Assembly (NCBI GenBank): GCA_020343495.1
Contig: CP070797.1
Span: 1,510-65,509, forward strand
Direction: 5' to 3'
DNA from: Candidatus Omnitrophota bacterium
GTDB lineage: Bacteria; Omnitrophota; Gorgyraeia; Duberdicusellales; 4484-171
DNA: 64,000 bases
Position 1 is the first letter of the stretch. Each line of letters starts with the position of its first letter. Made by a program: the position numbers and the translations under genes. Positions 1 through 31,597 of this stretch are shown here, in pieces. The notes beneath the pieces are model-generated. The model did not search any database. It had not been told where the DNA came from and saw only the letters and a list, made by a program, of their open reading frames with translations.

Positions 1-2062
1 CTTCTTTTTTCATCTTTTCTTTCTCCGCCGCCTCTTTGCTATCCATAATTTCAAAAACATTATCTGATGAATCATAAACAGACGTATCATTTGCATCGGA
101 CACTTTCATTTTAACTTCTGATGAAGAAAGTATATCTAGGGGAACCTGCCATAGAAACTGCCCTGTATTTTTTGTTTTTTCAACAATAGTGTTAAAACTC
201 TGGCCGTTATCAAGGGAATACTCTAACTTTATATCGTAGCTGTCTTCGTAATCCAGGGCTGACCACATTATTTCTTTTTCAATTCCTTTCTGCCAAAGTT
301 CTCCGCCGTTAGGAACAATCATACTAATAATACCCGGTGAACCGCTTAAAGTTAACTCTTCTAACCTTGAAGCTTGCGGGTCTCTTCTGTCAGGAGATAA
401 GTAAACGTTAGCTAAAATATTTTTTCCCGGAACAAAATCCCCTAAAGACGCATAGTAGTAAGCGCCGTTAACGCAACTCTTCTTAAAGTTAACGCCGTCG
501 TCAGCCGATACGTCCAGGGAGACATTTGTTCCTTTCCAGTCGGTAATTAAAATTCGCACATCAAACATAGCCCGTATCTTAACGGGAATGTAAAGACCTT
601 CTCTACTCTTATCATCCAACACAACGTCACCCTTTAAATCAATAACAGTATTTATGAACTGCGGCATCTCTACTTCTTCCTGTTTTTGAGCCTTGGTATC
701 CTTTAAAACCTGCGGTTCGGAGGGGGCGTATCGGCGCACTCTAACCCAATCATAACAGGCTTTGTTGTGGCCGGTCCCTATGGTTGAACGTAACCCCACA
801 TACCCTTGCTCAATGCCAAAAACGTCGCTAAAACTTACCTCTGCCTGCTTCTTGTCAAAGGCGTCACTATACCTTGCGAAAGTTAAATTCGGGCCGTCGG
901 CAATAACTCTATAATTGTATTTGGTATCTGTTGAAATTGGGCGTTTATCATTAACTTTTATATTGTCACCAACTACTATACAATGCTCTGCTTTTTCATA
1001 AACAGACGAATAAGCAATCAAACTTCTATCTTTACTCTCATCAAAGGTATCTTCGCCTCTTACAATAAACTCAATCTTTCTGCCTCTCTTAAGGGCTGCT
1101 GAATACTCAACTATACCGTCCCTAAGTTCATACGTTTTAGAAACAACGGTTGCGTCATCCAGTTCCAACTGCGAATCTAAAACAGCGTAGCTACCGTCTT
1201 TGCCACGTTTTATTTCCCACTTTTCAGTATCTAACTGTGCGCTGGAGAAATCATCAAAGAAATCAAACACCTCTTCCCCGCAAGATAAGTCTTGAGCGTC
1301 GGGATTGCCGTAATAAATGTAAATCTCTATTCCTGCCGGAGAGATTTGCGGGATTTTTACCCAGGCTACAGCTAACCGGTTGGGCTTGGTACCTTCTATC
1401 TTCTCAATGTAATGAGGAAGGATTGTCTCTTCGTCTAAACAAACGAACCGAACATCAGCAAAATCCGCCAGGATATTTCCTTCACAATGAAAGTCTGCTC
1501 CTTTAGTGCGCCGGGATTCACCCACTTTAAGTTCCATCTGATAATTAAACAAAGATTCATACAGCGGGTTATGGTTTATCTGAATCTTTTTTCTGTATTT
1601 AAACCCGCTTAGCTGCTGACTTCCAAAGGTTGCACCTACTCCGGTTTTATCCGTATAAGAAATCTTTACCTCAATAAGCTCGCTTGCCGGCCCAACATCT
1701 GCTTTCCATTTTAGACCTCTGCCGGTCTTAAAAAAATCCGTAGTTAAAGGCACGCCGTTAATTACAGAGGCGTACGTATCTCCATTATCAGCACTCACCT
1801 TTAACGTTACCTGGCCGCTAAACTGCCAGCTTGCAGTTATACTGGTTATATCGCCCTCGGTATAGATAACTTCTCGGGATTTATATTCTTCTGCGGATAA
1901 ACCTTTAGGCAGCAGATAATCTCCTTGCCCGTCTGTCCGCCAGACTACGGGAGATTTAAAAATCGTAACGTCACAAAAGGCGTATGATAAAGAAAACAGC
2001 CCTACTATTGCCGCTATTATTCCTACTTTAACTCCTGTTTTAATACCCTTACTCATCATCAT
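1..2062 (-). CDS. Partial CDS (first 687 codons, continues past the left edge). Secreted protein whose N-terminal head (signal peptide, beta-sandwich, DUF2341-like, ConA/LamG-like, Ig-like) is paralogous to the first ~690 aa of the giant protein upstream.
   Basis: Not in the ORF track because no stop lies in the window. Hand translation of the minus strand from three consecutive ATGs (2054-2062; GAGG 4-10 nt upstream) gives MMMSKGIKTGVKVGIIAAIVGLFSLSYAFCDVTIFKSPVVWRTDGQGDYLLPKGL...GFKYRKKIQINHNPLYESLFNYQMELKVGES...LAVAWVKIPQISPAGIEIYIYYGNPDAQDL...YDWVRVRRYAPSEPQV...MIVPNGGELWQKGIEKEIMWSALDYEDSYDIKLEYSLDNGQSF...SDNVFEIMDSKEAAEKEKMKKE. The frame stays open to nt 2 and is colinear by eye with giant-protein residues 1-690. 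Confidence 0.8.
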   Translation of the reverse strand, partial: MMMSKGIKTGVKVGIIAAIVGLFSLSYAFCDVTIFKSPVVWRTDGQGDYLLPKGLSAEEYKSREVIYTEGDITSITASWQFSGQVTLKVSADNGDTYASVINGVPLTTDFFKTGRGLKWKADVGPASELIEVKISYTDKTGVGATFGSQQLSGFKYRKKIQINHNPLYESLFNYQMELKVGESRRTKGADFHCEGNILADFADVRFVCLDEETILPHYIEKIEGTKPNRLAVAWVKIPQISPAGIEIYIYYGNPDAQDLSCGEEVFDFFDDFSSAQLDTEKWEIKRGKDGSYAVLDSQLELDDATVVSKTYELRDGIVEYSAALKRGRKIEFIVRGEDTFDESKDRSLIAYSSVYEKAEHCIVVGDNIKVNDKRPISTDTKYNYRVIADGPNLTFARYSDAFDKKQAEVSFSDVFGIEQGYVGLRSTIGTGHNKACYDWVRVRRYAPSEPQVLKDTKAQKQEEVEMPQFINTVIDLKGDVVLDDKSREGLYIPVKIRAMFDVRILITDWKGTNVSLDVSADDGVNFKKSCVNGAYYYASLGDFVPGKNILANVYLSPDRRDPQASRLEELTLSGSPGIISMIVPNGGELWQKGIEKEIMWSALDYEDSYDIKLEYSLDNGQSFNTIVEKTKNTGQFLWQVPLDILSSSEVKMKVSDANDTSVYDSSDNVFEIMDSKEAAEKEKMKKE

Positions 2063-2083
2063 ATAACCTCGTCTTTTTTAAAT

Positions 2084-2124
2084 GGCGAGTGATTAGTGAC
2101 TAGTAGCTAATCTCAAAACTCGCC
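2084..2124 (-). promoter_or_regulatory. Imperfect intercistronic stem-loop between the giant gene and its downstream paralog
   Basis: Plus strand: ggcgagt+gattag (2084-2096), loop tgactagtag, ctaatc (2107-2112), 5-nt bulge tcaaa, actcgcc (2118-2124). That is 7+6 bp. On the sense strand it is followed by AUUUAAAAAA, not a U-tract, so it is not a canonical intrinsic terminator. Confidence 0.4.
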
Positions 2125-2160
2125 ACTTACCACTTGCCACTTACCACTCGCCACTTACCA
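2119..2160 (-). repeat. Three tandem 14-nt units (sense TGGTAAGTGGCRAG), equivalent to six TGGNNAG heptamers. The array starts 1 nt after the giant-gene stop codon.
   Basis: Plus strand: ctcgccacttacca (2119-2132), cttgccacttacca (2133-2146), ctcgccacttacca (2147-2160). The stop TGA is tca at 2162-2164. The last sense unit forms the 5' arm of the stem-loop at 2084-2124. Confidence 0.85.
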
Positions 2161-2161
2161 A

Positions 2162-5100
2162 TCACCTGAATTCAAACCAAACCTGAGTAACCGGTTTATT
2201 AGCAACGTTCTCAATCATCTTCTTAGATAAATCCATGGTTGCTTTCAGCTCTTCAGTCTTATTCTTTAAATAGGTCATGTCTTCTTTCTTTTCTTTAGAG
2301 ACCTCGTATACTTTTTCTAAATCAATATCTTCGGTAGCACCTAATGCTTTAATCTGTTTACTGATATGACTCAATTGCGTAAATATGTACTCTATCGCTT
2401 CTTCCATCTCGCTGATGTCTTCATCTACTCCCACGCCCTTCTCAAGGTTAATAATCTGAGCCAAGGCGCTCTCAATCATATTAATTTGACTCTCTATACC
2501 TTCCGCTGCTTGAGCAAACTCACTCAAACGGGAAGTCGTTCCTAAAATCGCAGCCGTAGTAGAAGCAACGTCGGCAATATCATACTCGCTTGCAGTAATA
2601 ACCATTGCATCCGTAGTCCCGAGAGTTTCTTCCGCACAGATAATACTAAAATCTCCTATCCCCCACTGGGTTAAAAACTCTACGTCAAATTCATAAATTC
2701 CGCTTCCCGGCGTTGTCTCTTTCATTATACCCTTAGAAACCACAGCTTTATTCATAGCATCATAAACATCTATACTGGGAACCAGGCCTGTCTTTGTGCG
2801 GTAACGAACAGCCAAACTACCTCCGCTTCTTACAGTGGTCTCCCGATTCAAAATCCCTGACTTAATGTGCGGCTGGACACCGCTGACTACCGTCTCAGTA
2901 ATAAAAGAAGGCAACGTCTCTGTAGTAGCAGTCAGAATCTCAGCCGTATCAACTTTTATCTCCTCAGCTTTGGAAACAACCGTGCTCTTTACCTCTTCTG
3001 CCTCCTCCTCTACAACTTCTCTAGTAACCTCTTCTTCCTGTCTTATCGTTTCTCTAGTAACCTCTGATTCTGCGGTTACGTGCTCTCTAACGCCAATAAC
3101 TTCCTCTTTTATCTCATCACTCACTTCTTCAATCTTATCGGTAACTTCCTTCAGCTTTTCAGTAACAGTAATGGTAAAAGTCGTGCCGGAATAATATGTT
3201 ACTTTATCACCGGAAGTACCACCGTAACCGATACTGCAGCGGGCAAAATAGGTCTTACCGCTAACCAGCATCTGGTTTAAACCCTGAGGTGGCAGGCCAT
3301 CAATACCTTCAACTACGTTCTCAACCCTATACCAATAATTGCCTTGCTCATCTGCCTCGGGGTCGGTAAGAGTACCTATTAATGTATCGCCGTCATAGAT
3401 TAATACCGTGGCCAGGCCTAAGGCGTTTATATCACTGGTGACAATCTGCTGGCCTCTCTTCTCCAGCCGCATTGTTGCAGTTAAGGTATCACTTCGTTCA
3501 TCATAAGCAAAGTCAGACAACACGCGATAATCCGCTAACGACTCGGCAACAGACATTACAAATATGGTCCAGCTTATCTTATTATCATATTTTCCGTCGA
3601 CTCCGTCAGCGCTAACGCCAACTAACTTTTCAATCTGGGTAGGAACATATGCGTCTTTGACAAAATTAAAGGTATACTTTCCATAGGGCAGAAAGAGTTC
3701 AAAGGGTTCCTCGCCTTGACGTTCAATAGTATCAAGTTTGATTTTACCCTGGATAATCTCCAGCTTAATCTCTATAAGCGGGTTTCCAAAGACTGAATCG
3801 CGGGCTTCCCAGGTAACGCTATAGCCCGACTCTACCACTATATTGCCTGAGGGGACAGTAGAGTCCAATCCCACAGATGAGCCGACTATTGTAAGAGACG
3901 CAGTAGCTTCAGGATAAGTTATGTTAGAGAACCTGGCCAATCCGTTTACTGCTGTTACCTTAGTAGTGGCGTCTGCTCCAAACGACCCTGCTGAAGGCTC
4001 TACTGTTACTTCGTCGCTTGCGGAACTCAAGTTTCCGTAAGCATCGCTTACTTTAATAACAAAAGGCGCCCAAATAGCATTGACAGCAGTAATACTCTTT
4101 GGCAGATTATCCGCATCCCAGGAAAGCTTACTTCCCACACCCCCGTAAACTACCACATCCAAATCCGTCGTTGAACGGGTTTTAACTACCCCTTCTTCGG
4201 CTTGGACACTTGTAGTTTCCGCTTTGTATAAGCGGATAATGGTAGTGGTAACTCCCCTAACAAATGTGAGAATAGTCCCTTGATTGAAGGGTACCTGAAC
4301 TTGGGTATTATTCTCGGCAGTAGGGGGAATTTCCTGGTCATCAGGAGAAGATCCAGGCCCATTAAATTTAAGAGTTTTATCGCCTTCGTAGTCAGTAACC
4401 ACGTTATTATATTGGTCATAAGTAGTAATAGTTATTGTTTTGGTGTCGCCGGCCTTCATTGTAGAGGTGTCCGCCGTGATTCCGAAGTAATTTTCAACTG
4501 CCGGCATAACCGTGATATCATCCGAGGCGTCGTCTATACCATCGTCGCCATCAGCCGGAACAGCGTCGGATACTGTAATCGTCCAGTAGCCAGGCTCTTC
4601 CCTGCTGGTCTTTTCATCATAATACCAGAAGTCAACGGTGCTTGAACCGTTCTGTATTGACCTGGTAGTCACAACATTTCCTTCAGTATCTTTAAATGAA
4701 GCAGCTGTTCCGTCGGAAGTGGTGTATAAATATACTCTATCCTCATCAATTGTTTGCGGGTTAAGGTAAGCGTCGTATCTGGTTAGAGTATATTTAACAC
4801 TTGTTCCGGCAACAATATAATCAATATCCTCAGGCGAAGTTAATAAAGCAAAACTATCCGTTAGACCAGAGGACACACTAATATCTATGTTACGAGTCTC
4901 ATCTCCTATAGTAGTTACAACTCCCTGGGTAACTTCCAGAGAAACATCCTCAACATTATAGCAAACCAATGTTAACGCTCCTGCGTCAGATACGCCTTGC
5001 GTAAAATTAACGCTGCCCACTGAAGCCGAACCATCAACAAACTCTACACCCTTTATTGTAGGGATAGCTCCCGAAGGAGAATTAGCCGGCCCCGATGTAA

Positions 5101-8100
5101 ATGTCAAGGCCTTTGGCCCTTCATATACTGTGGCTACGTTATGGAACTCATCATAAGCGGTTACTTGTAACTCATTGGTTTCTGTTGCTCTCATTGTATT
5201 GTCGCCGCCGGTAAACCTAAAATATTCAGCAGGAGCAGCAGTAACGCTAATATCTTCCTGAGTATCAGTTAACATAGGTTGTTCAGTATCAACGACAGTA
5301 ACCCTATGTTGTGAGTCTGTTGTTGTTGTTCTAAACGTTATGCCGCCGCTGAAAGTGTGTGAACCGGCATCTGCCATCACAAAAGTATAATTTAGCGGTA
5401 ACGTCGCTTTAGCATCGCTGCACTCAAACCTCACTGTGCCGCTGTAACCGCTGGCTCTGTTATCATGCTGGTCATATAAGGTAACAGTAATATCGTTAGG
5501 AGCGCCGGCAGTTATGGATTGGCTAAGGTCGCTAATCTGGAGTTTTACCGCATCGTCAGGTTTAACAGTGAAAGTATAAGAACCTGCTTCTAACGAATCT
5601 CCGCTGCTTCTGATAGCAGTAATAGTAGTTTTTTCTGGTTTGAGGTCACTGGCTTCGGTATCGCTATAATAGAACGGCGCACTCTGGCTCTCACCCACTA
5701 AAATTTCAATCTGGATAGTAGGATTCATGCCAAAGGGGTCACGGTAAAACATCTTTTCATCCGAACCAGAATCAGAATCAAGTATAAACGCAGTTTCACT
5801 ACTTACAGTTGCGTCGTTAGTTCCCGGGTCTTGAGCAATTATATAAAACGGCCCGGAAATAACTCCTGCATCTATAGTTTCAGGACCGGTAATCCTTACG
5901 TCTACTGCTACACCAGCTATAACCTCTAAATCAAGGTCGCGATCCTCACTGGCAAAGGAATTTACAGTTCCGTCAGAAACATCCACAGTAGTGATCTCTG
6001 CTTTGTAAGCGATTAAGGTTGCTCCACCCGCAACAGAGACGCCATTACTAAACATTATCGGCGTGGGCGTCCCTAACGGCACACCTTCCACTTCAGGGAC
6101 TGCCGCAGGGGCTGGGTTAGGCCCGGAGAATGTCAACTGTTTCTCGTCGGTATAATTGTTAGGGCCTGAGTCCACTAAATTGTCCAACACATCATAAGCC
6201 CTGATAGTCAATTCGTTTTCGCTTCCCGCAGCCATTGAGCTGTTACCGGTTACAATAAGGTAACTGGCAGGAGCAGGAACAATTGTTTCGGTCTGTGTAT
6301 CTGAAGTTAATCCCGGCACTGCCGTATCACTAACGGTAATTAGAGGTGTTCCCGGGTCATCATCATAATAATCAAAGGAAACTGTGTCTACTCCGGAATC
6401 GATATTAATCATACCCAGGCCTCCCGGTGGAGAAGTAGTGCCTGTATTGTAAAAAATCCCATTAGAGCTGGTCTCCAACTCAATGGTATATAATCCCAGC
6501 GCTTGAGGGTTATCAAACCTATCCTGGACCTGGACGCTCATAGTTCCCGGTTCACCGGCATTTAGGGTAAGCGCAGGATTCGTGATAACCAGTTTTTCTG
6601 CATCCGCAGGAATAACCGTCTGGGCCTGCTCATGGGAGTCTAAATCTCCTGCGGCATCGGTTACGGTTATTGCGGGGCTGCCTGCCTTTTCATCGTAGTA
6701 ATCAACAGTGACGGAACTGACTCCATCAGGGATAGCAATACTACTATCAGCAAGTTCGGTTTGCGTGCCGGTCTGATAGAAATGGTACTCTTGTTCCGGA
6801 GGGGTTGCCTGAGAGTCACTGCTTAGATTAACCTCTACAAACCCTTCTGACTGCGGACTTCCGAATGTATCCTGAACCTCAACAGTTATCGTTCCCTGTG
6901 TTCCGGCAGTTAAAGTAAACGCTGAAGATATAATGCGAAGTCTTGACGCTGTAGCAGGGATGATTGTATGAACCTGTTCATCAGAAGTAAGACCTGCTGC
7001 CTGGACAATAACCTTGGGCGTTCCCGGCTCCTCATCATAATAATCAAAGCGCACATAACTTTCTCCATTAAGGGCAGTCTTGCTGTTCATTGGGGTAGTG
7101 GTACCCTCTTCATAGAAATAATTGAAATCCGGTAATGGATATTCTCTGGCTGGAACAACAAGATAAATACCCTGCGGTTGAGGGTTGCCAAAACCATCCT
7201 GTATTTCAACATTCATTGTCCCCGGCAGGCCTGCTTCAAGACTGAGCGGGTCGGTAGTTATAACCAGTTTTTCTGCATCCGCAGGGATAATCGTCTGGGC
7301 CTGCTCATAGGGGTCTAAATTTCCTGCGGCATCGGTTACGGTTATTGTGGGATTACCTGCCTTTTCATCGTAGTAATCAACAGCGACGGAACTAGTTCCA
7401 GCAGGGATAGTAATACTGGTAGTGGCGGTTTGCGTCCCGGTTTGATAGAAATGGTATTCTTGCGGGTCAACTGCCTGGGAGTTACTTGCCAAATTAACTG
7501 TAAATGAGCCGTCCGACTGAGGGTTACCATGAATATCCTGGACTTCTACGGTAATTGCTCCCTGGACGCCTGCTGCCTGATTTAAAGCGTCAGAAGTAAT
7601 CTGCAACTGTGCTGCATCAGCCGGAGTAACGGCAATGCTATACGAATCATATCCTAAATCTTCGTCCCCTCCGCTTATCCATTTAGCAGTCACGGAAGGA
7701 CTTGCTACCTTTGTATCTTTGTAATAAAAAGTTGCTGTACCTGTTCCCGCATACATTGTTACGGTAGTAGCCTCTACCATTCCTCCGGCATCTAAATAAA
7801 ACAACTCCTCGCCTTGAGAATCTGAAGAAAGTTCAAACAGTTCATCGTTTTCCACGAGAGTGTCATTACTAACAATATCCTGGGCAGTTATTATAAAGGC
7901 GCCGGATACTTCATCCACAACAACTGCTGCCGGCCCGCTAAGTTCTATTATTGCAGCAGGCCCGGGTTTGGTGGTAATAGGGTCACTGTATCCCCTAACG
8001 CCGTTATCGTCCTTAGCTATTATCGTAATTGTTTCAGCAACGTTATTTTTAACATAAACCGTAGCTACGCCATCAATTAATCCGTACCTGGCAGGAGTCT

Positions 8101-11100
8101 TAAGTTGAAGATAGCTCTCATCTATATAGAACTGGGCATTACCCTCATTACCCTCGTTATCCTCGTTACTCATAATTACTTCGGTCTCAGAGTCAGTTGT
8201 CACTATGTTGCCGTAAGGGTCATAAGCAGTAACTGTAACCTCCCATCCGGTACCGGCATCCTGGTCGGTGTCGCAAGTTACCTCATAACGCTTAATAACA
8301 GAAGAAGGGCCAACCGTAATTGGGTCTGGATTGTGAAGACCGCTAATCTCGTTTTCCGGATCTTCTACAGTGACCGATTGCTCGCCTACGGTTTTTAGAA
8401 TTACTCCGTTACCTTTTGAGACGCTGAAGGTTACATACCCCGCTCCTAAACAATCAGCAGTCTGATAATGTATGGTTACGTCTTTTAACGTAGGCGTAAT
8501 TGTATTATCAGCGCTTGTCATAATTGCCTGATATTTGATATACTTATGGTTATTGTGGACGCTGGATATATCCTGGCCGGAAATGGTGTAGTAAAGGCCA
8601 GATACATCAGTTCCAACTTCACCTGCTGCTAAGTCTTCAATCTCATCAGGAGTTACTGCGCGGTTAAATATAGCCACTTCATCTACACTCCCAACATTTT
8701 GACTATCGGTATGATTGCCAATCCTACTTAAATCCTGTGTTATTTGTGTATTGGCTGTACTTACATAATTACCATCAATATAAAATTTTGTTGTCCCTCC
8801 CGAACTTATAGCTGCGATATGGTGCCAGCCTGCCGATAAAGAGTTGGTATTATATCCGCTCGAAGACCAACTATTGTTATAACATCCTATATTTCCGGAA
8901 GAATCCCATATAATATGATGATAAGTTCCCCCTTGCCGCTGGAATAAAGTTCTCCATCCCTGTGCTGTTGTGGGAAGCGGAAACTTAACCCATGCTGCCA
9001 TTGTTCTATCACCATTCATATTTATTGGTGAGATATTTACATAATCTGAAGTACCATCAAAATTCAATGCCCTTCCAAATTTGCCGGCAATCCAGACAGG
9101 AGTATTTACCAGTGTTCCTGTATTATTGCTAGGTGAACTATCTTGCGCACTCATGCCGCTACCTTCATTAAAATGCCATAACCCCACCAATCCTGGAATG
9201 AGGTCGGTCTGAGCGTCCCCTTCCCCCGGCCCCACAAACTCTGTCCAGCCGGTATCCGGGAGGGTTGAAGAAGCAATCAGGAATTTGATGCTTGTATCTT
9301 CAGGCACATCAGCATTCCAGGATATGCCGGAAAACCACGCCGGCTGCTCTAAATTCTTTATTGAGGAAGTAAACGTACCAGAAGTGCTATACAGCGTTTT
9401 ACTTTCCCACCAGGCAATGTCCCTGGCGTAATACGCCGACCCTAAGATATCTGTATCTCCATCGCTATCTATATCGGCGGCGTAGATACCCCAAGTATGA
9501 TCAAAACCTCCATCGATTACGTGTTTAGTAAAGCTTTGCATACCGTCGTTCTCATACCATGCCACGTCATCAGCATAAGCAGCCGAACCTAAAACATCAA
9601 TATCTCCGTCTCCATCTATATCTGTGGCATAGACGTCAATAGCGCCGTCAAAACCTCCATCAATTGTGTGTTTGGTGAAACTTTGCGCGCCGTTATTCTC
9701 CCACCAGGCAATGGCATCGTGGTAAAGCGCTGCACCTAACACATCAATATCGCCATCTCTATCTACATCAGTAGCGTAGATGCTGTAACCACAATCAAAA
9801 TACGTATCAATATTATGTTTGGTGAAACTCTGGTTACCGTCATTCTCATACCAGGCAATGTCATCCCAACCCTCTGATACACCTAAAACATCAATGTCGC
9901 CATCTTTATCTACATCTATAGCATAGACATCACGAACATAATAAAAATATGAATCAACAAAGTGTTTGGTAAAGTTCTGCTCCCCGTCATTCTCATACCA
10001 GGCAATGTCATGGTCGTAGACCGCTGCACCTAAAACATCCATATCTCCGTCGCTATCCACATCTATGGCATATACACTACAAGCATAATTAAAATTTCCA
10101 TCAATTACGTGCTTGGTAAAATTCTGCAGGCCATCATTCTCCCACCAGGCGATGTCATCAGTATTAGCTGCTGCACCCAAGACATCCATATCGCCATCAC
10201 TATCTACATCAACAGCATACACGCTATGGGCACCATCAAAACCTCCATCAATTATGTGCTTGGTAAAGTTCTGCGCGCCGTCATTCTCCCACCAGGCGAT
10301 GTCATCAGCTTCACGTGCTGCACCTAAAACATCCATATCTCCATCGCTATCCACATCTGCGGCGTAGACGTCAATAGCACCAACAAACTCTCCATCGATT
10401 ACATTTTTGGTAGTAGGGATAGCCACAGAATAAAGCGACAGTTCCGCTGCCTCGCCTGTTCCCCGCACTTGCGTACCTAAAGCCGGGCCGCTTGCGCCGC
10501 TTTTGAATTCCGTATCAGAACTCTGCCTCCATTCTTCAGGAACAACAAACCAGTAATTCTCAGGTAACACTGCTTGAGCATCTGTTGAAGAAAACTGGAT
10601 TTTACCGGTATAGTTCGCCGTAATATTGTTACTGGCATCCAATGCCGTTACTGTTATATCACTGGGCGTGCCGGCATTTATCGAGGACGGGATTCCTTCT
10701 ACTTTTAAACTTACTACTTCTTCGCCGCTGCCAACCACAATAGGAGAAGAGGCGCCCGAATAGTCGTAATCAGTAACGCTTATCGTAATAATTTCCGGCG
10801 TAGCGTCTTTAGCAAAAACAGTGGCAGTGCCTCCGGAAAGATTATAAAACACTGCTATCGTATCGTAGCTATCGTTGGTATAAAATTGCGCATCACCGTT
10901 GCTAGAAGGAGCAATTGCCACGGCTGCGCTGGCAACTGTATTGCCGTATTTATCTTTAGCTGTAACTGTCTCCTGCCAGCCAACACCTATGGTCTGAGGA
11001 GTGTGCGTGGTTACTTCATAATAACTGATATCGCCGGCTTCTACAGAGATGTATCCTGTGCTTGCCGTTATGTCATCTTTATCTTCAATCGTCAGGAAAA

Positions 11101-25064: not shown

Positions 25065-25961
25065 TTACCGAGATTGAACCTCGATATTTCGGATGACTTT
25101 ATCTTCGTAAAGTTCAACTTTCTCCTGGGAAAATGTCTGAGTAATCAACTCATTAATAATCCGGTCCCTCTGGCGCCTAGTATATTCAAACTCCACTTGC
25201 TGACGCACCTGCTTAAAAGGCTTATCCTGAGCAGGTTCTTTCTCGTTAATATGAAAGACGTAAAATTCATCCTTTATCTTAAGTACGTCAGTTACCTCGC
25301 CCTTATTAAGTTGAAAAATCTTATCTAACACCTGCGATGACAATATTTCTTCTAATTCGGGAGCAAAAGGTGCATCTTTTGAAATCCAGCTATCTATCCT
25401 GGTGATATTTCTTCCGCCGACTTTCTCAAAATTTCTGCCTTTATTCAATTGGTGGACTATTCTGTCTGCCTCCTTTTTGCTTTTTGATTTAACATAACTG
25501 AGCTTCACTTTTTCTTTTATGCGATATTTTTCTTTATTCTGCTCATAATATTTGCGCAAATCTTCTTCGCTGATTTTGAGTTTGGTGAATTCGTCAGCCA
25601 CCAACTTCTCAGCTAAAATCCCTCTCCTGGCGCGCTCTATCTCATGGATTACATCTGCTTCTCTGTCAAGTCCCTGACGCTTTGCCCTTTTAGCCAGGGC
25701 GAGGGTGGCAATATACTTACGGAAAAAATCCAGGCGCCAGGTTTTGCTCGTCTGGAAGTTCTCTTTAAGAAACCGGTTAAGTTTCTCTGATTCCCGCTCT
25801 AACTCCGAGAAGTATATCTTCTCTTTACCTATCGTTGCTATAATAAGGTCTTTGGCTGCCTCCTCTTCCTTAGACTCAGAAAAAACACTAGCCGTAACTA
25901 CAATCGTCATTACCGCCATCATTGGAACCAACAATTTTATTTTCATCATCCGCCTCTCCAT
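25065..25961 (-). CDS. Secreted PpiC/parvulin-type (SurA/PrsA-like) chaperone; the rotamase domain looks degenerate
   Basis: Signal-like MKIKLLVPMMAVMTIVVTASVFS. SurA-N-like helical region. Parvulin-like C-half: KVKLSYVKSKSKKEADRIVHQLNKGRNFEKV...LNKGEVTDVLKIKDEFYVFHINEKE. The true start is probably the internal ATGATG after GGAGAGG (M5/M6). Confidence 0.6.
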   Translation of the reverse strand: MERRMMKIKLLVPMMAVMTIVVTASVFSESKEEEAAKDLIIATIGKEKIYFSELERESEKLNRFLKENFQTSKTWRLDFFRKYIATLALAKRAKRQGLDREADVIHEIERARRGILAEKLVADEFTKLKISEEDLRKYYEQNKEKYRIKEKVKLSYVKSKSKKEADRIVHQLNKGRNFEKVGGRNITRIDSWISKDAPFAPELEEILSSQVLDKIFQLNKGEVTDVLKIKDEFYVFHINEKEPAQDKPFKQVRQQVEFEYTRRQRDRIINELITQTFSQEKVELYEDKVIRNIEVQSR

Positions 25962-25979: not shown

Positions 25980-26615
25980 TTATTCTATAAGTTTATGTTG
26001 AACGGCATACTTTATAAGTTCTGACGTCTTATGAAGCCCCAGTTTTTTAAGGAGATTATTCTTATAGTTTTCTACGGTCCTGCGGCTAATAAAAAGGACT
26101 TCGGCTATTTCTTTTGCGGTTTTTCCTTCTACTATGAGGCGTAAGATATCAGCCTCCCGTTCAGTAAGGATTTCTTCAGCCGGTCCCTTGCCCTCACGGG
26201 TAACTTTTTCTATCATATACCGGGAAACCTGAGGGCTCATATACACCTCTCCCTTAGAAACATTACGTAAAGCCGGCAAGAGTTCCTCAACAACGTTCTC
26301 CTTATGAAGATACCCTTTAACGCCTAACTTCAATGCTTTTGCTATATAAATATTTGCCCGGTGCACTGTAACCATAATGACTTTTGTATTCGGCGAAAGA
26401 TAACGAATTTGCTCAATTACATCAAGGCCGCTCTTTTTAGGCATTGTAATATCCAGGAGAATGATATCCGGTTTAAGATTTTCTGTATTGCGAATAACTT
26501 CTTCTCCGTCTACAGCCTCACCCACCACTTTATACTCTGCCTGATTACGTAATATACTCTTGATTCCTTCACGAATAACGTCGTGATCGTCAGCAATCAA
26601 TACTTTCACCGCCAT
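25980..26615 (-). CDS. NarL/FixJ-family response regulator (REC + LuxR-type HTH)
   Basis: VLIADDHDVIREG...DIILLDITMPKKSGLDV...LTEREADILRLIVEGKTAKEIAEVLFISRRTVENYKNNLLKKLG. Confidence 0.9.
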   Translation of the reverse strand: MAVKVLIADDHDVIREGIKSILRNQAEYKVVGEAVDGEEVIRNTENLKPDIILLDITMPKKSGLDVIEQIRYLSPNTKVIMVTVHRANIYIAKALKLGVKGYLHKENVVEELLPALRNVSKGEVYMSPQVSRYMIEKVTREGKGPAEEILTEREADILRLIVEGKTAKEIAEVLFISRRTVENYKNNLLKKLGLHKTSELIKYAVQHKLIE

Positions 26616-26629
26616 TTCTTGTCTCCTTC

Positions 26630-27967
26630 TTACACTACCAATTCCACACTAATCTTAGTTCCTTTACTCACCTGGCTCTTAATATCCAACTTACCGCCTA
26701 AGAGCTCTATCCTTTCCCTTAACCCCTGTAAGCCCAGCTTCAACTTATCTTCACGTCGGCGCCGCGGCCGAGTGAGAAACTGCTGGTAATCAAACCCTTT
26801 ACCGTCGTCGCTAACGCTAAGATACACGGTGCGGTCTTTTTTCTGAAGGGATACCGTAACATTTCTTGCGTCAGCGTGTTTAATAACATTGGTTAAACAC
26901 TCCTGCACTACGCGGTAAAGAGCAAGGCTGTATTCGGGAGCGAGTTTTAAATCATAAGCCGGCTTATAATAGCGGTACTTACAATGCATTAGTTTCTGGT
27001 GTTCCGACACTAAAGCAGCGATACTTTCTACCAACCCTAAATCATCCAACTCCGGCGGCCGCAACAACTCAGAAATATTATGCCCTCTATAAATTAAGCT
27101 GTCTAATATCCCTTTACTTTTCTCAATCTTTTCTCTCTGCTCAAGGTTTTTGCCCTCTATATTTTTCTCAATAAGTTCTAAATAAATCTTTAATGCGCTT
27201 AAGTCCTGGCTTAACTGGTCGTGAATTTGACGGGAAAGGTTTTTACGTTCCTCCTCTTCCAGGCGAATCATTTTGCGGACAAGCCATTCCCGTCTCGTGC
27301 GTTCCTCTTCAAGGCTCTTATACACAAAAACAGCGATAGTTACTCCCAAAAGGATACTAAAAACCAAACTCACTAATAAAATAGCTGTAGAAACGTCCTT
27401 CTGTCTATAAGTTAACTTTAACTGCCGCTCAATATCTTTAAGATTGTTTTTACTTAACGTATTGGCCAGGAGGTCATCAATGCGGTAAAACTTATTTTCA
27501 AAAGAAATAAGAAATCTATTTACTTTTTCGCTGTCTTCGGCAGCGCTGTCTACTAACTCAATAAGTTTTTTACCGGTTTCTTCCAATCCTTTAGCTAATT
27601 CCTCAATAATTTTAAGCCAGTTCTCCTCTTGCTGTGAATCTGCCAGTAAATAATATTGCTTAATATAGTCTTTAAACTTAGCAGAGGATTTCTCAATAAA
27701 GTTCATATCGGAAGCAACTGAGGCAGCGTGCAGATACTTAGAAATACGCCAGGACACGTAATTGCGGACCCCCATGGAGTAAAAAGTGTTTTCAATTTTC
27801 ATCTCTAAAATTACCCTCTCTTTGGGTAAATACTTCTGCTCAAAATTCTCAATGGCTTTAGTCAAAACGTTAATTTGCAGCAGCCCCATAATGCCAATAC
27901 TTACGGTAAGGACAAGAAATAAACCAAACCCGATTAATAGCCTTTTTTCTCTAAAATATACTTTCAT
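26630..27967 (-). CDS. Sensor histidine kinase, HisKA_3/NarX-LiaS type, with a ~160-aa extracytoplasmic helical region
   Basis: TM1 at residues ~10-30 and TM2 at ~193-216. H-box RQIHDQLSQDLSALK. HATPase motifs ECLTNVIKHA, VSDDGKGFD, GLQGLRERIELLGG. Confidence 0.9.
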   Translation of the reverse strand: MKVYFREKRLLIGFGLFLVLTVSIGIMGLLQINVLTKAIENFEQKYLPKERVILEMKIENTFYSMGVRNYVSWRISKYLHAASVASDMNFIEKSSAKFKDYIKQYYLLADSQQEENWLKIIEELAKGLEETGKKLIELVDSAAEDSEKVNRFLISFENKFYRIDDLLANTLSKNNLKDIERQLKLTYRQKDVSTAILLVSLVFSILLGVTIAVFVYKSLEEERTRREWLVRKMIRLEEEERKNLSRQIHDQLSQDLSALKIYLELIEKNIEGKNLEQREKIEKSKGILDSLIYRGHNISELLRPPELDDLGLVESIAALVSEHQKLMHCKYRYYKPAYDLKLAPEYSLALYRVVQECLTNVIKHADARNVTVSLQKKDRTVYLSVSDDGKGFDYQQFLTRPRRRREDKLKLGLQGLRERIELLGGKLDIKSQVSKGTKISVELVV

Positions 27968-27988: not shown

Positions 27989-28729
27989 CTATTGGGAATA
28001 TTTTCCTTCAGGGAAAACCTGCTGATAAACCACGTCCTTAAGCCGGTTTATCCAGTTTAAGACTTCTTGCTTATCGGATGCCTCAGGTTTAAGTTCTAAA
28101 TATTTCTGATAATGAAGGATAGCTTTCTCCGGCTCTAAATTAAAGTTTTCATACAAAAGGCCTAAATTATAATGTGCCTCAGCATTCTTTGGTTCAAAAC
28201 TTAAAGATTTCTCATAGGCCTCAACAGCTTTACTGAAAAGCTTAGCCTGAACATAGGATACTCCTAAATTATAATAGTAGAATCCTCTTTCTTTTCTTAA
28301 AGTCTCTTCTAAAGTTACTACTTTCGCTTTAAGCTCGCTGTGTTCTTTAGCTAAAACATCCTGCTTCTCGTCTTTGGCTTCCGTTTCTTTAGTCATCTGG
28401 CTCTTTAATAATTCCAGCTGGCTACTTAAATTTTCTATATTTATATCTTTTCCTTCTACTGAGGATTTTAACTTTTTAATCTCTTCTTGCAACTGAGTAG
28501 TAAACTTTGTATAGTAAACCGCGTCAGCCTGAAACTCCTGGTTTTCCTCAAGTATTGTTTTCTTCTCTTTCTCCAAACGCTTAATATCTTCTTTTAGTTT
28601 CTCTGCTAGCTGGTCCGACTGGTCTAACTGCATCTGAAAAGAACTACCTTTTAAATAGAAACTTACCGCTACTGCAGCTATTGATATACTCCAAATTACA
28701 AGAATCGCGACCAAAATTTTCTGCGTCAT
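27989..28729 (-). CDS. Membrane-anchored coiled-coil + TPR protein
   Basis: N-terminal TM ILVAILVIWSISIAAVAVSFYL. About 110 aa of heptad-rich KE/LE sequence. C-terminal TPR-like region: YYNLGVSYVQAKLFSKAVEAYEKSLSFEPKNAEAHYNLGLLY. Confidence 0.7.
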   Translation of the reverse strand: MTQKILVAILVIWSISIAAVAVSFYLKGSSFQMQLDQSDQLAEKLKEDIKRLEKEKKTILEENQEFQADAVYYTKFTTQLQEEIKKLKSSVEGKDINIENLSSQLELLKSQMTKETEAKDEKQDVLAKEHSELKAKVVTLEETLRKERGFYYYNLGVSYVQAKLFSKAVEAYEKSLSFEPKNAEAHYNLGLLYENFNLEPEKAILHYQKYLELKPEASDKQEVLNWINRLKDVVYQQVFPEGKYSQ

Positions 28730-28751
28730 CTGCTACTACCGATTACAGGCG

Positions 28752-28765
28752 AGGGGCCTTCCCCT
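28752..28765 (-). other. Small GC-rich hairpin between the two TPR genes
   Basis: Sense AGGGG-AAGG-CCCCT (5-bp stem, 4-nt loop). No U-tract follows. Confidence 0.3.
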
Positions 28766-28766
28766 T

Positions 28767-29777
28767 TTACTGTAGAATATTTATCAGGTCTCTTGCTTTT
28801 TCGTTATATTTACCGTAAGGCTCCAACTCCAGATACTCGCGAAAACATTCTACGGCTATTTTAGAATCTTTTCTTTGATATTGATACAACAGCCCCAGGT
28901 AATAATATATAAGAGGGTCATCTGCCCTCAGGGTTAAAGATTTCTTATACGCTTCTATCGCTTCATTATACAACTTTGCCTTAACATAAGAAGCTGCTAA
29001 CTGTGCATAAAGAGCTGACTTTTCTTTTTTATTCTTTTCTTTCTCTTTAGATAAAGCTTGGGAAAACGCCGCCAGTTTCTCTTCTAAAGCCTTATTCTTA
29101 GCTTCAACTTCAGACACGCCAGCCGCAAATGCAGCTAATTTATCCTTAGAATCTTTCTCATCTTGCTTTTGTCCCTCATCTGATTTAGCTTTGGCTGCCC
29201 TTTTTATATCACGTTCAAACTTATCCAGGACTTCGTCTAACTCACTCCTGGTGTAACTTTTTCCTGTCAGCGGCGCTGCCTTCCTTCCCACATCTTCTAC
29301 GGATACGCCCAGTTTAGCGGCTATATCTGCAAGATGTTGTTGTGCTTTATCTGTCCAGGGATCACTTTTCTCTCCCAACTTTATTCTCCTCCTCCAGTAA
29401 TAGGCAGATTCCTGATAATCGCCTTTCTCTTCATAAAGCAAGGCTAAATTAGAATATGCGCTTATACATTTGGGGTCTTTCTCTATACATTTTAAATAAT
29501 ACCGGGCTGCTTCTTGAGGCTGGCCCTTTGCTTCATATATAACTCCTATATCATTATAGAGAATAAAATAGGCGGGGTCTAAAGTTAAAGCTCGCTGGTA
29601 AAAACTCATTGCAGCATCTATATCGCCTTTTTTCTGAGAGGCGTACCCTTTATTTCGAAGTTCTCTTGCACTTTGCTGTAATGCCGTCAATTGCCCGGCT
29701 TCTAAATAAGGAACATAGATAAAAACTGCTATTAAAAAAGACAGAACTCCAAACTTTAATCCCAAACATCTCATCAA
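28767..29777 (-). CDS. Secreted TPR / coiled-coil / TPR protein
   Basis: Signal-like LKFGVLSFLIAVFIYVPYLEA. TPR units: AMSFYQRALTLDPAYFILYNDIGVIYEAKGQPQEAARYYLKCIEKDPK and more. A central charged coiled coil, then C-terminal TPRs. Confidence 0.7.
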   Translation of the reverse strand: MMRCLGLKFGVLSFLIAVFIYVPYLEAGQLTALQQSARELRNKGYASQKKGDIDAAMSFYQRALTLDPAYFILYNDIGVIYEAKGQPQEAARYYLKCIEKDPKCISAYSNLALLYEEKGDYQESAYYWRRRIKLGEKSDPWTDKAQQHLADIAAKLGVSVEDVGRKAAPLTGKSYTRSELDEVLDKFERDIKRAAKAKSDEGQKQDEKDSKDKLAAFAAGVSEVEAKNKALEEKLAAFSQALSKEKEKNKKEKSALYAQLAASYVKAKLYNEAIEAYKKSLTLRADDPLIYYYLGLLYQYQRKDSKIAVECFREYLELEPYGKYNEKARDLINILQ

Positions 29778-31583: not shown

Positions 31584-31597
31584 ACTTTATAATTTTA

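What the first reader, a model, noticed from the sequence alone, without database searches (positions are those of the whole stretch)
1..2062. A second giant-family gene starts 99 nt downstream and shares a ~690-aa N-terminal head with the first
**Seen in the sequence**
- An open frame missed by the ORF track runs from 2062 to the window edge.
- It is colinear with the head of the giant protein: signal peptide, DVTIFKSPVVWRTDGQGDYLLPK, sandwich, KYRKKI...IYIYYGN (DUF2341-like), ConA-like, second sandwich, Ig-like PNGGE...W...EYSLD.GQ.., then a charged linker.
- No terminator separates the two genes.

**Inference**
- They form a tandem, co-transcribed family.
- The conserved head may be the part recognised by the export/assembly machinery or anchored at the cell, while the distal parts diversify.
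Basis: partly seen in the sequence, partly recalled or inferred. Interest (0 to 1): 0.65.

Follow-up and report, generated by a model that had tools for sequence, protein, structure and literature searches.

The report
Shared-head neighbour is not giant
The gene next to the 7,444-residue giant does share its ~680-residue five-domain head, but it is an ordinary 1,000-residue member of a widespread Omnitrophota surface-protein family that sits beside a conserved outer-membrane secretin gene set, so the giant is the unusual long form.

Summary
The sequence observation holds. A minus-strand frame is open from 2062 to base 1. It starts 99 nt after the giant's stop. It aligns colinearly with the giant's N-terminus at 43% identity over ~672 residues of globular domains.

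The label "second giant" does not hold. The full product (P0001, 100% identical) is 1,000 aa. It ends 313 residues past the window edge in a Gly-rich beta-helix-like tail unrelated to anything in the giant.

The head defines a family of mostly 650-1,100-aa "DUF2341 domain-containing" proteins from Omnitrophota MAGs. The N-terminal sandwich and DUF2341 domains are the most conserved parts. C-terminal tails vary.

- In 13 of 18 independent loci the head gene follows a histidine kinase and LuxR regulator.
- In all 9 loci that reach far enough upstream, one or two secretins precede these, usually with TPR proteins, a GspC-like protein and an MshM/ExeA-like ATPase.
- The window has the same set.

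The giant belongs to a rarer long subfamily; P0118 and P0168 are colinear with it over 1,350-1,700 aa.

The two heads are old paralogues (66% nt identity). Co-transcription is unproven because a strong hairpin fills the spacer. The idea that the head is the machinery- or envelope-facing constant module fits the data but remains inference.

The parts
1..2062 (-). Codons 1-687 of a 1,000-aa gene (P0001). It has a signal peptide (aa 1-29) and an N-terminal beta-sandwich (aa 30-145, nt 1628-1975). A DUF2341 sandwich (aa 146-262, nt 1277-1627) and a ConA-like domain (aa 263-450, nt 713-1276) follow. Then come a second sandwich (aa 451-577, nt 332-712), an Ig-like domain (aa 578-673, nt 44-331) and a K/E-rich helical linker. 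The remaining 313 aa (Gly-rich beta-helix-like tail) lie left of the window.
2063..2161 (-). 99-nt spacer between the giant's stop and the next start. Three 14-nt tandem repeats (GTAAGTGGCGAGTG, 2117-2158) form the 5' arm of an ~80-nt hairpin (about 2079-2157). An A-run, a GAGG Shine-Dalgarno sequence and ATGATGATG follow.
   Evidence: The hairpin has dG -43.9 and z -6.1. There is no T-run and no promoter-like site.
2162..24496 (-). Giant gene of 7,444 aa. It consists of the head, an acidic linker, a post-head module, then LamG, FG-GAP, propeller and Ig arrays, and a C-terminal sandwich/coiled-coil region. Residues 1-1625 and 6875-7444 are unique. Residues 1626-6875 are internally repeated modules. 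The only hydrophobic segment is aa 19-42.
22427..24496 (-). Head of the giant (aa 1-690), the paralogue of the head of the downstream gene.
24503..24799 (-). Small Trp-rich ORF (98 aa) ending 6 nt before the giant's start. It is conserved as a protein in L001 and L006, upstream of head genes.
24835..24843 (-). Extended -10-like element TGGTATAAT in the AT-rich gap upstream of the small ORF, also present in L006. It is a candidate start of the small ORF-giant(-gene 2) transcript.
   Evidence: read from the sequence and alignment; not flagged by the two-hexamer scan
25065..25961 (-). PpiC-type peptidyl-prolyl isomerase (Rotamase_2) with an N-terminal signal or anchor.
   Evidence: The same domain is reported upstream of Omnitrophota giant genes (10.1101/2023.11.21.568195).
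25980..27967 (-). Two-component pair: histidine kinase (26630-27967; HisKA_3 and HATPase_c; two TM segments) and LuxR/GerE response regulator (25980-26615).
   Evidence: Present upstream of the head gene in 13 of 18 independent loci.
27989..29777 (-). Two TPR proteins with N-terminal hydrophobic segments.
29829..33265 (-). Two tandem secretins (Secretin plus Secretin_N; nearest to the GspD, PilQ and MshL models but below their cut-offs).
33267..33908 (-). 213-aa bitopic protein (TM at aa 59-82) with a weak match to the GspC HR region.
   Evidence: (E 0.0086, far below cut-off). It is syntenic in L002, L004, L007, L015 and L023 at E<=1e-8, with a weaker match in L020 (25% identity).
33937..34779 (-). 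AAA_22 ATPase of the ExeA/MshM/PEP-CTERM-ATPase type (280 aa, no TM).
   Evidence: TIGR03015: 179 bits, cut-off 324.5
34882..35112 (-). 76-aa ORF at the head of the locus, in the position held by MerR_1 genes in L002, L020 and L023. Its assignment as MerR-like rests on that position and on reading the sequence.
   Evidence: Not scanned against Pfam here.

Best explanation
**What the gene is (shown)**
The ORF at 1-2062 is the 5' two-thirds of a complete, ordinary-sized gene of 1,000 aa. It has a Sec-type signal peptide and a conserved five-domain head (sandwich, DUF2341, ConA-like lectin fold, sandwich, Ig-like). A short K/E helix and a ~310-aa Gly-rich beta-helix-like tail follow.

**What family it belongs to (shown)**
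It belongs to a family found almost only in Omnitrophota MAGs. The members listed are mostly 650-1,100 aa. In this family the head is constant and the C-terminal tail is swappable: absent, ~170 aa, a ~315-aa beta-helix, or kilobases of LamG and repeat arrays. The neighbouring 7,444-aa giant is an old paralogue from the long-form subfamily. Between the shared head and a conserved C-terminal region it carries ~5,000 aa of internally repeated modules.

**Where the genes sit (shown)**
Both genes lie at the distal end of a conserved locus. Its order is MerR-like ORF, MshM/ExeA-like ATPase, GspC-like bitopic protein, two secretins, TPR proteins, histidine kinase, LuxR-type regulator, (PpiC isomerase, 98-aa protein), then the head proteins.

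**Proposed mechanism (inferred)**
1. The kinase and regulator switch on the head-protein genes.
2. The products cross the inner membrane via Sec. The periplasmic isomerase helps the long beta-rich chains to fold.
3. The co-encoded secretin gate takes them to the cell surface.
4. The most conserved part of the head (N-sandwich plus DUF2341) is the constant, machinery- or envelope-facing module that docks every family member to the same partner.
5. The variable tails, and the giant's LamG/FG-GAP/Ig arrays, are the outward-facing, diversifying adhesion parts used on host or prey surfaces.
For: **Gene length and tail**
- Full length 1,000 aa, with the tail sequence in hand. The tail is unrelated to the giant.

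**Head architecture**
- Pfam DUF2341 in both proteins. The AlphaFold2 model has pLDDT 87.7, with ConA-like fold matches.
- Each protein has a single N-terminal hydrophobic segment and no other TM.

**Family**
- 73 homologues, named 'DUF2341 domain-containing protein [Candidatus Omnitrophota]' where a name exists.
- Tail classes A to D.
- Among the top 150 library hits, ~75 match the full head in one stretch. They are 608-1,350 aa except P0167 (4,237 aa) and P0168 (2,776 aa).
- P0118 and P0168 are colinear with the giant's first 1,350-1,700 aa at 47-50% identity.

**Conservation**
- Conservation is highest in the N-sandwich and DUF2341 domains (58% each between the two window copies). These domains also have the most family-wide near-invariant columns.

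**Synteny**
- HK and RR lie directly upstream of the head gene in 13 of 18 independent loci.
- Secretin(s) lie upstream in all 9 independent loci that reach far enough. TPR proteins, the 213-aa protein and the AAA_22 ATPase are also there where the sequence extends and the match passes threshold.
- In the closest relative (P0002, 58% identity) and in L002, the 1,000-aa form directly follows the regulator.

**The giant as an expanded frame**
- Its C-terminal 770 aa are 37% identical to the C-terminus of the 2,051-aa gene that follows a head gene in L001.
- L026 encodes head plus post-head, and 5 nt later a 305-aa homologue of giant residues 7118-7444.
- Internal repeats are confined to residues 1626-6875.

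**Age of the duplication**
- 66% nucleotide identity, with a longest shared word of 14 nt. Head 2 groups with P0002 and not with the giant.

**Literature**
- T2SS-like genes and a Rotamase_2 isomerase upstream of Omnitrophota giant genes are reported in 10.1101/2023.11.21.568195.
- DUF2341 proteins are encoded in archaeal type IV pilus loci (PMC4858521). One in the epd pilus-gene region of Methanococcus maripaludis was hit repeatedly in a screen for transformation defects (PMC10133366).
Against: - No interaction between head and secretin was tested. The link is by gene neighbourhood only.
- The 62 kb of the window upstream of gene 2 hold no GspE/PilB ATPase, GspF/PilC platform or pseudopilin genes. 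A working type II-like pathway would need parts encoded elsewhere.
- The head is ~650 aa with a lectin fold. That is more typical of a ligand-binding module than of an export tag.
- Head-only members exist as complete genes (P0021, 681 aa, L021), so the head does something on its own.
- Five of 18 loci lack the HK/RR/secretin context within the sequence available (L001 second copy, L017, L018, L021, L026).
- The NJ tree is star-like and resolves little.
- The length distribution is biased. That search returned nothing above ~1,100 aa even though longer relatives exist.
- A stable hairpin separates the two genes, so they may not be expressed together.
Confidence: 0.5

Rival explanations
1. The head is itself the distal ligand-binding adhesin, a lectin-type module that binds a common host or prey glycan. 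The tails and the giant's C-terminus are stalks or cell-proximal anchors. On this reading the neighbouring secretin set is just the export route and does not recognise the head.
For: - The head contains a ConA-like lectin/CBM fold. Its flanking sandwiches and Ig-like domain are typical of carbohydrate-binding exoproteins.
- Head-only proteins exist.
- The Ig-like domain is a common repeat of other giant surface proteins.
- The literature treats LamG- and discoidin-rich Omnitrophota giants as adhesins (PMC10066038).
Against: - The ConA-like domain is less conserved than the N-sandwich and DUF2341 domains.
- A prey-binding tip would be expected to diversify. Here the head is the constant part and the tails vary.
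- In one locus a diversity-generating retroelement targets the downstream CLec-type genes, not the head gene.
- No anchor (TM, lipobox or known sorting signal) was found at either C-terminus.
Confidence: 0.28
2. The head proteins are structural parts of the secretin-associated apparatus and not its cargo. They could form a surface cap, a platform or a fibre-tip component. This would be analogous to the DUF2341 proteins encoded in archaeal type IV pilus loci and to PilY1-like tip adhesins.
For: - DUF2341 proteins are encoded in archaeal Epd-pilus loci, are proposed there as tip adhesins, and one was hit repeatedly in a transposon screen for transformation defects (PMC4858521; PMC10133366).
- One head gene sits at a fixed position after the regulator in most loci.
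- Downstream partner genes begin with a beta-helix similar to the tail of the 1,000-aa form, which hints at a heteromeric assembly.
Against: - There is no prepilin (class III) signal, only a Sec-type signal peptide.
- No pilin, PilB/PilC or PilY1 (Neisseria_PilC) domains were found in the window.
- Copy number varies (two in the window, two in L001), and so does tail type. That is unusual for a fixed structural subunit.
Confidence: 0.15
3. One reading: a second giant gene of the same family follows the first, and the two form a co-transcribed tandem array of giants.
For: Within the window the ORF is open to the edge and shares the head. No canonical terminator or promoter was found in the spacer.
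Against: - The product is 1,000 aa.
- Orthologues with the same beta-helix tail are 990-1,094 aa and are complete genes with a following gene.
- A strong hairpin lies in the spacer.
Confidence: 0.02
4. The similarity reflects a recent tandem duplication, gene conversion or an assembly artefact that copied the head.
For: The two copies are adjacent and in the same orientation.
Against: - Only 43% amino-acid identity and 66% nucleotide identity, with a longest shared exact word of 14 nt.
- Each copy has closer or equally close relatives in other metagenomes (P0002 at 58% for gene 2; P0118 and P0168 colinear with the giant).
Confidence: 0.01

Closest known systems
[quoted passage not shown]
   Same: Both window proteins contain a DUF2341 domain well above threshold. 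Like the archaeal proteins, they are large extracytoplasmic proteins encoded next to secretion or pilus-type genes.
   Different: The window proteins come from a diderm bacterial phylum. They have a Sec signal peptide, not a class III signal. DUF2341 is embedded in a fixed five-domain head. The neighbours are secretins, an MshM-like ATPase and a two-component system, not pilins or PilB/PilC.
Omnitrophota giant ORFs next to type II/IV secretion-like loci (West-Roberts et al. 2023, 10.1101/2023.11.21.568195; Seymour et al. 2023, PMC10066038; Nielsen & Lui 2026, 10.64898/2026.06.07.730766)
   Same: Same phylum. The 22.3-kb ORF is rich in LamG and repeat domains. It is preceded by gspD-type secretins and a Rotamase_2 isomerase. 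It fits the 'tandem-repeat scaffold' class and the >20 kb definition of Seymour et al.
   Different: The giant here has one N-terminal hydrophobic segment only, with no multiple TM helices and no SecA or C39 domains. At 7.4 kaa it is below the 10-kaa catalogue threshold. No gspE/gspF lies nearby. Those papers' main texts do not use the term DUF2341 (full-text search), and the passages read here mention no head shared with ordinary-sized paralogues. The gene in the finding itself is only 1,000 aa.
MSHA-pilus / type II secretion secretin-assembly module (MshL secretin, MshM/ExeA AAA+ ATPase, MshN TPR protein, GspC)
   Same: The combination of an ExeA/MshM-type AAA_22 ATPase, secretin and TPR proteins, together with a bitopic protein that weakly resembles the GspC HR region.
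   Different: All matches are below the curated cut-offs. There are two secretins in tandem. The window has no MshE/G/F, pilins or pseudopilins. A histidine kinase and LuxR regulator are embedded in the module.
Exoprotein families with a conserved N-terminal module and variable C-terminal cargo (two-partner secretion TpsA/CdiA; N-terminal retention module of RTX giant adhesins such as LapA and MpIBP). This analogy is from general knowledge.
   Same: The logic is the same: a constant N-terminal domain tied to a dedicated outer-membrane channel, followed by a long repeat extender and variable distal parts.
   Different: No TPS (Haemagg_act) domain, no TpsB/POTRA partner and no RTX or T1SS components were detected. 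The channel here is a secretin. The resemblance is functional analogy only.

Membership tests
DUF2341 (PF10102) domain-containing proteins | Match to the PF10102 profile above the gathering score (23.4 bits) | tested here: met
   Gene 2 scores 81.9 bits at aa 200-284. The giant scores 79.9 bits at aa 209-293. P0001 scores 80.3 bits.
Omnitrophota five-domain 'head' family (defined here) | One colinear match over signal peptide, sandwich, DUF2341, ConA-like, sandwich and Ig-like (~650 aa) | tested here: met
   Gene 2 aligns with the giant at 43% identity over 672 aa. It aligns with 68 database proteins at 36-58% identity, 54 of them over at least 90% of the query. About 75 single-stretch full-profile hits were found.
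Omnitrophota five-domain 'head' family (defined here) | Position downstream of the secretin(s)-TPR-HK-LuxR RR gene set | tested here: met
   Window genes at 25980-34779. The same order occurs in L002, L004, L006, L007, L014, L015, L020, L022 and L023, with a truncated version in L024. Exceptions are L017, L018, L021 and L026.
Giant genes/proteins of Omnitrophota | Length: ORF >20 kb (Seymour 2023), gene >=25 kb (West-Roberts 2023) or protein >=10,000 aa (Nielsen & Lui 2026) | tested here: not met
   Gene 2 is 1,000 aa, or 3 kb. The neighbouring giant (22.3 kb, 7,444 aa) meets only the >20 kb definition.
Giant genes/proteins of Omnitrophota | Numerous transmembrane regions, often with SecA DEAD or C39 domains (West-Roberts 2023) | tested here: not met
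   The hydropathy scan finds only the N-terminal segment in both proteins. Pfam finds no SecA or C39 domains.
Type II secretion system substrate | Sec/Tat export followed by secretin-dependent release, with a complete GspC-M/GspE/F/pseudopilin set | not testable with these tools
   A signal peptide-like N-terminus is present and secretins are adjacent. No GspE, GspF or pseudopilin gene lies in the window. The rest of the genome was not available.
MSHA-type secretin module (MshL/MshM/MshN) | Matches to TIGR02519 (MshL) and ExeA/MshM-type ATPase models above the curated cut-offs | tested here: not met
   TIGR02519 scores 147.7 and 172.6 bits against a cut-off of 250.2. TIGR03015 scores 179.3 against 324.5. 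The module is related but not a member by the curated thresholds.
Two-partner secretion TpsA exoproteins | N-terminal TPS (Haemagg_act) domain and a TpsB (POTRA plus ShlB) partner | tested here: not met
   Neither protein has such a Pfam hit. No neighbour in the locus has one either.
Type IV pilus tip adhesin (PilY1-like) or minor pilin | Class III (prepilin) signal or a PilY1/Neisseria_PilC beta-propeller domain | tested here: not met
   The N-terminus is a Sec-type h-region followed by SYA/VYA, with no G-F/M-T-L-x-E motif. Pfam finds no PilC/PilY1 domain.

The most novel reading that the evidence does not exclude
The five-domain DUF2341 head could be a portable docking and addressing module. 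It would couple structurally unrelated cargos to a dedicated twin-secretin gate in Omnitrophota. The cargos range from a 310-aa beta-helix to multi-thousand-residue LamG/FG-GAP arrays. The gate has MshM-like and GspC-like helpers and its own two-component switch. This would be a previously undescribed substrate-recognition or retention logic for secretin-based export. It would explain how at least one class of giant surface proteins is delivered and held at the cell surface.
Probability: 0.25. Interest if true: 0.75.

Novelty: new variant of a known kind. Interest (0 to 1): 0.42.

Why it matters
Giant proteins of Omnitrophota are thought to mediate attachment to host or prey cells. How they are exported, and which part faces the cell, is unknown.

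This result shows that one 7.4-kaa giant shares a well-folded ~650-aa head with a common 650-1,100-aa family. That family is fixed next to a secretin and two-component gene set. This gives a small, tractable handle.

- The head, and especially its N-sandwich and DUF2341 domains, can be expressed, solved and tested for binding to the secretin N-domains, the GspC-like protein or envelope glycans.
- The head can also serve as a sequence marker for finding such loci in fragmented metagenomes, where the giant genes themselves are usually cut by contig ends.

For the finding as written, the practical outcome is a correction. The second gene is not a giant.

Tried and rejected
1. **Extending the contig to the left.** The look-up of encoding contigs had no record for P0001. 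The genome contigs and metagenome-contig scans did not recover the source contig. The genes downstream of the 1,000-aa gene in this genome therefore remain unseen. The full protein sequence came from the protein database instead.
2. **Locus scans with broad alignments.** A 3-sequence alignment worked but returned only 9 and 7 loci.
3. **Similarity of the tail to the giant.** None was found.
4. **PDB sequence search with the family profile.** Nothing significant came back.
5. **Foldseek of the whole model.** It gave only ConA-like domain matches and no analogue of the whole head.
6. **AlphaFold2 of the giant's conserved C-terminal 772 aa, using 6 sequences.** Mean pLDDT was 48, so the model was not used for fold search. 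Only the secondary-structure pattern (sandwiches plus long helices, no TM) is noted.
7. **Homology search with that C-terminus.** It gave only 9 hits, all at or below 1,060 aa. This shows that the word-indexed search does not return long proteins, so the length distribution cannot be taken at face value.
8. **NJ tree of 73 heads.** It is star-like. It shows only that head 2 pairs with P0002 and that a clade of Ig-less heads carries long extensions.
9. **Rfam scan of the window.** There were no hits, so the spacer hairpin is not a known RNA family. The 14-nt repeat is absent from all 27 related loci.
10. **Canonical promoter and terminator scans of the spacer.** No terminator-like site and no promoter-like site lies in the spacer. 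The one promoter-like match (2043-2016) lies inside gene 2.
11. **Recent duplication or gene conversion.** Rejected.
12. **Lipoprotein anchoring.** The Cys at residue 30 of gene 2 is not in a lipobox context (YAFC), and it is absent in P0002 and in the giant. This was read from the sequences.
Full report
**1. Checking the observation**

Translating window 2062->1 on the minus strand gives 687 sense codons that reach the window edge. The ORF lister did not report the frame because it omits ORFs that run off the source. The giant gene is 2162..24496(-), 7,444 aa. Its stop codon occupies 2162-2164 and the next gene starts at ATG 2062, preceded by GAGG, so the spacer is 99 nt as stated.

BLASTP of the two N-termini gives one colinear alignment: 301/692 identities (43%), 61% positives, E=0. 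It runs from the signal peptide to residue ~672 of the new gene and ~682 of the giant. Identity by domain is:

| Domain | Identity |
|---|---|
| N-terminal sandwich | 58% |
| DUF2341 domain | 58% |
| ConA-like domain | 41% |
| Second sandwich | 31% |
| Ig-like domain | 43% |

These figures show that the similarity is not confined to low-complexity sequence.

Both proteins hit Pfam PF10102 (DUF2341) at ~80 bits against a cut-off of 23.4. An AlphaFold2 model of the full protein is confident (mean pLDDT 87.7). Foldseek against the PDB matches the jelly-roll to legume lectins, ERGIC-53, CBM66 and GH16 glucanases at E~1e-6, but finds no analogue of the head as a whole.

**2. The gene is not a giant**

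The database search with the 687-aa fragment returned P0001. It is 100% identical over 100% of the query, is flagged as the window's own product, lies on a 1.52-Mb contig, and is 1,000 aa long. After the head and a K/E-rich linker, its sequence continues for ~310 residues of Gly-rich repeats (GGAGGS.YL...) that the model builds largely as beta-helix-like rungs. The only family hit for this tail is a far sub-threshold match to the AgmC N-terminal model.

This tail has no significant similarity to the remaining 6,744 residues of the giant (best E 0.085). So 'shares the head' stands and 'second giant' falls.

**3. What the family looks like**

Seventy-three further proteins match. Nearly all of those that carry a name are 'DUF2341 domain-containing protein' from Candidatus Omnitrophota/Omnitrophica MAGs. 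A few are assigned to other bins. By what follows the head they fall into four classes:

- **A:** head only, ~650-700 aa. P0021, for example, is a complete 681-aa gene.
- **B:** head plus ~160-190 aa.
- **C:** head plus the ~315-aa beta-helix tail, 990-1,094 aa. This is the window's gene. Its closest relative is P0002 at 58%.
- **D:** heads lacking the Ig-like domain, followed by long extensions that are cut by contig ends (L004, L005, L006, L015 and L017, each over 1,240 aa and still open).

The word-indexed search returned nothing above ~1,100 aa in two searches, although longer relatives exist. Its length distribution is therefore biased.

The exhaustive profile search gives a better picture. 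Many of its top hits were unrelated giants that only repeat the Ig-like domain. About 75 of the top 150 hits match the full head in a single stretch. These are 608-1,350 aa, except P0167 (4,237 aa) and P0168 (2,776 aa). P0118 and P0168 are colinear with the giant's first 1,350-1,700 residues at 47-50% identity. The giant therefore belongs to a recurrent long-form subfamily (head, acidic linker, post-head module, LamG) and is not a one-off fusion.

**4. Anatomy of the giant**

Internal repeats (30-75% identity) are confined to residues 1626-6875. Residues 1-1625 and 6875-7444 are unique. Pfam finds LamG and FG-GAP arrays in the repeated part.

The C-terminal 770 aa are 37% identical (E 2e-139) to the C-terminus of a 2,051-aa protein encoded right after a class-C head gene in L001. 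In L026 a head-plus-post-head gene is followed 5 nt later by a 305-aa homologue of giant residues 7118-7444. The giant therefore reads as a conserved N-terminal and C-terminal frame with ~5,000 aa of repeat expansion in between.

Neither the giant nor P0001 has any hydrophobic segment other than the N-terminal one. This differs from the TM-rich giants described by West-Roberts et al.

**5. Age of the paralogy**

The two heads share 66% nucleotide identity over the best 730 nt, and no exact word longer than 14 nt. In an admittedly star-like NJ tree, head 2 pairs with P0002 and not with the giant's head. This is an old duplication or an independent acquisition. It is not a recent tandem copy, a conversion tract or an assembly artefact.

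**6. Genomic context**

All genes from 35112 down to base 1 are on the minus strand. In order they are:

| Coordinates | Gene |
|---|---|
| 34882-35112 | 76-aa ORF in the position of the MerR_1 genes of related loci |
| 33937-34779 | AAA_22 ATPase of the ExeA/MshM/PEP-CTERM-ATPase type |
| 33267-33908 | 213-aa bitopic protein with a weak GspC-HR match |
| 31649-33265, 29829-31583 | Two secretins |
| 28767-29777, 27989-28729 | Two TPR proteins |
| 26630-27967 | HisKA_3 kinase |
| 25980-26615 | LuxR/GerE response regulator |
| 25065-25961 | PpiC (Rotamase_2) isomerase |
| 24503-24799 | 98-aa Trp-rich protein |
| 2162-24496 | Giant |
| 1-2062 | 1,000-aa gene (first 687 codons) |

The rest of the window (35-64 kb) is housekeeping. 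It contains no GspE/F, PilB/C or pilin genes.

The same order recurs elsewhere. Among 18 independent loci with usable upstream sequence, 13 have HK-RR directly upstream of the head gene. All 9 independent loci that extend far enough also have the secretin(s). TPR proteins, the 213-aa protein, the AAA_22 ATPase and in three cases MerR are there too, where the sequence extends and the match passes threshold. The exceptions are L017, L018, L021, L026 and the second copy in L001.

In the closest relatives the 1,000-aa form sits immediately after the regulator (L024 and L002). So the window looks like the standard locus with PpiC, the 98-aa gene and the giant placed between the regulator and the standard head gene.

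What follows the head gene elsewhere varies:

- LamG-rich giants (5,552 aa in L020; 2,051 aa in L001).
- Beta-helix-led large proteins (L025, L002).
- FGE-sulfatase/C-type-lectin-fold proteins. In L022 these come with bAvd and a reverse transcriptase, which together form a diversity-generating retroelement cassette.

**7. The spacer and expression**

No canonical terminator or promoter-like site lies in the 99-nt spacer. The spacer does contain three 14-nt tandem repeats that form one arm of an ~80-nt hairpin. The hairpin has dG -43.9 kcal/mol and z = -6.1, and none of 200 shuffles folds as well. It is unique in the window, absent from the 27 related loci, and matches no Rfam family. It lacks a U-run. 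It could stabilise the 3' end of the giant's message, attenuate read-through, or do nothing. Co-transcription is therefore possible but not shown.

Upstream of the 98-aa ORF lies an extended -10-like TGGTATAAT (24843-24835). It is conserved in the closest related locus, L006, and is a candidate start for the transcript.

**8. How it most likely works**

*Shown:*
- The head is constant, the tails are swappable, and the head gene is tightly linked to a secretin/HK/RR set.
- There is a Sec-type N-terminus and no other membrane segment.
- Conservation is highest in the N-sandwich and DUF2341 domains.

*Inferred:*
- The kinase and regulator control the head genes.
- The products are exported by Sec, folded with help from the periplasmic isomerase, and passed to the surface through the co-encoded secretins.
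- The conserved N-terminal part of the head is the module that meets a constant partner, either the secretin complex or the cell's own envelope. The tails and repeat arrays are the diversifying, outward-facing adhesion parts.

*Main rival:* the lectin-like head is itself the distal binding tip. Head-only genes and the ConA-like fold favour this. Constancy of the head against variable tails argues against it.

*Third possibility:* the head proteins are structural parts of the apparatus, by analogy with DUF2341 proteins of archaeal pilus loci (PMC4858521, PMC10133366).

None of these can be separated without localisation or interaction data.

**9. Relation to what is known**

Omnitrophota giant ORFs next to type II/IV secretion-like genes and a Rotamase_2 isomerase are already described (10.1101/2023.11.21.568195; 10.64898/2026.06.07.730766). 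So are LamG-rich adhesin-like giants (PMC10066038). The giant here meets only the >20 kb definition. It lacks the multiple TM regions those papers emphasise.

A full-text search found DUF2341 in only nine papers, none about Omnitrophota. I found no description of this head family, of its link to a twin-secretin/MshM-like/HK-RR set, or of a giant sharing its head with ordinary-sized paralogues. I therefore rate it a new variant of a known kind. For the finding as worded, the main result is a correction: the second gene is a normal-sized family member.

Noticed in passing
window 24503-24799 (-); L001 9349-9645; L006 6062-6373: A 98-aa ORF with five Trp-centred repeats (xW[IVM][FVL][DN]P) and a conserved MFVILKLFHFPSWD start ends 6 nt before the giant's start codon. 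It is conserved as a protein (54-66% identity, with synonymous-type DNA changes) in two other loci, in each case upstream of a head gene (directly in L001; three further ORFs lie between in L006). It has no Pfam or NCBIfam match.
   Followed up: partly
window 2079-2160: Three 14-nt tandem repeats (GTAAGTGGCGAGTG) form one arm of an ~80-nt hairpin (dG -43.9, z -6.1) directly after the giant's stop codon. The hairpin has no U-run, is unique in the window, is absent from the related loci and matches no Rfam family.
   Followed up: partly
L022 13359-19792 (JGI Ga0247841_10000831): In a related locus the head gene is followed by two FGE-sulfatase (C-type-lectin fold) genes, bAvd genes and a reverse transcriptase. 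This is a diversity-generating retroelement cassette inside the same surface-protein locus.
   Followed up: no
window 29829-33265 (-): Two full-length secretin genes lie in tandem, about 47-50% identical to the pairs in L002, L022 and L023. In some relatives the second secretin is fused to a TPR domain. Several other relatives (for example L004, L007, L015 and L020) have a single secretin.
   Followed up: partly
window 2165-4480 (-) = giant aa 6673-7444; L001 1570-7725; L026 5598-6515; L027 22-1947: The giant's C-terminal ~770 aa (sandwich domains plus long helices, ending ...VTQVWFEFR) is a conserved module. It also occurs at the end of a 2,051-aa protein and as separate or truncated ORFs elsewhere. 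The AlphaFold2 model was too poor (pLDDT 48) to identify it.
   Followed up: partly
one search hits P0075-P0117 and others: The Ig-like domain at the end of the head (PNGGE...W...YSLD.G, profile positions ~574-669) is repeated up to 58 times in unrelated 2,000-7,000-aa proteins in public metagenomes. It probably accounts for much of the 41,907 profile hits.
   Followed up: no
L006 6750-9888; L005 5960-9361: In two loci that carry long-form head genes, three extra ORFs with signal-peptide-like starts (~190, ~310-360 and ~450-510 aa) sit between the regulator or 98-aa gene and the head gene. They are absent from the window.
   Followed up: no
window 34882-35112 (-): A 76-aa ORF sits upstream of the ATPase, in the position held by MerR_1 genes in L002, L020 and L023. 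This suggests a second regulator for the secretin module.
   Followed up: partly
tool behaviour: The word-indexed protein search returned no protein longer than ~1,100 aa in two searches, although 2,051-aa and 7,444-aa relatives exist. Length distributions taken from it under-represent long proteins.
   Followed up: yes
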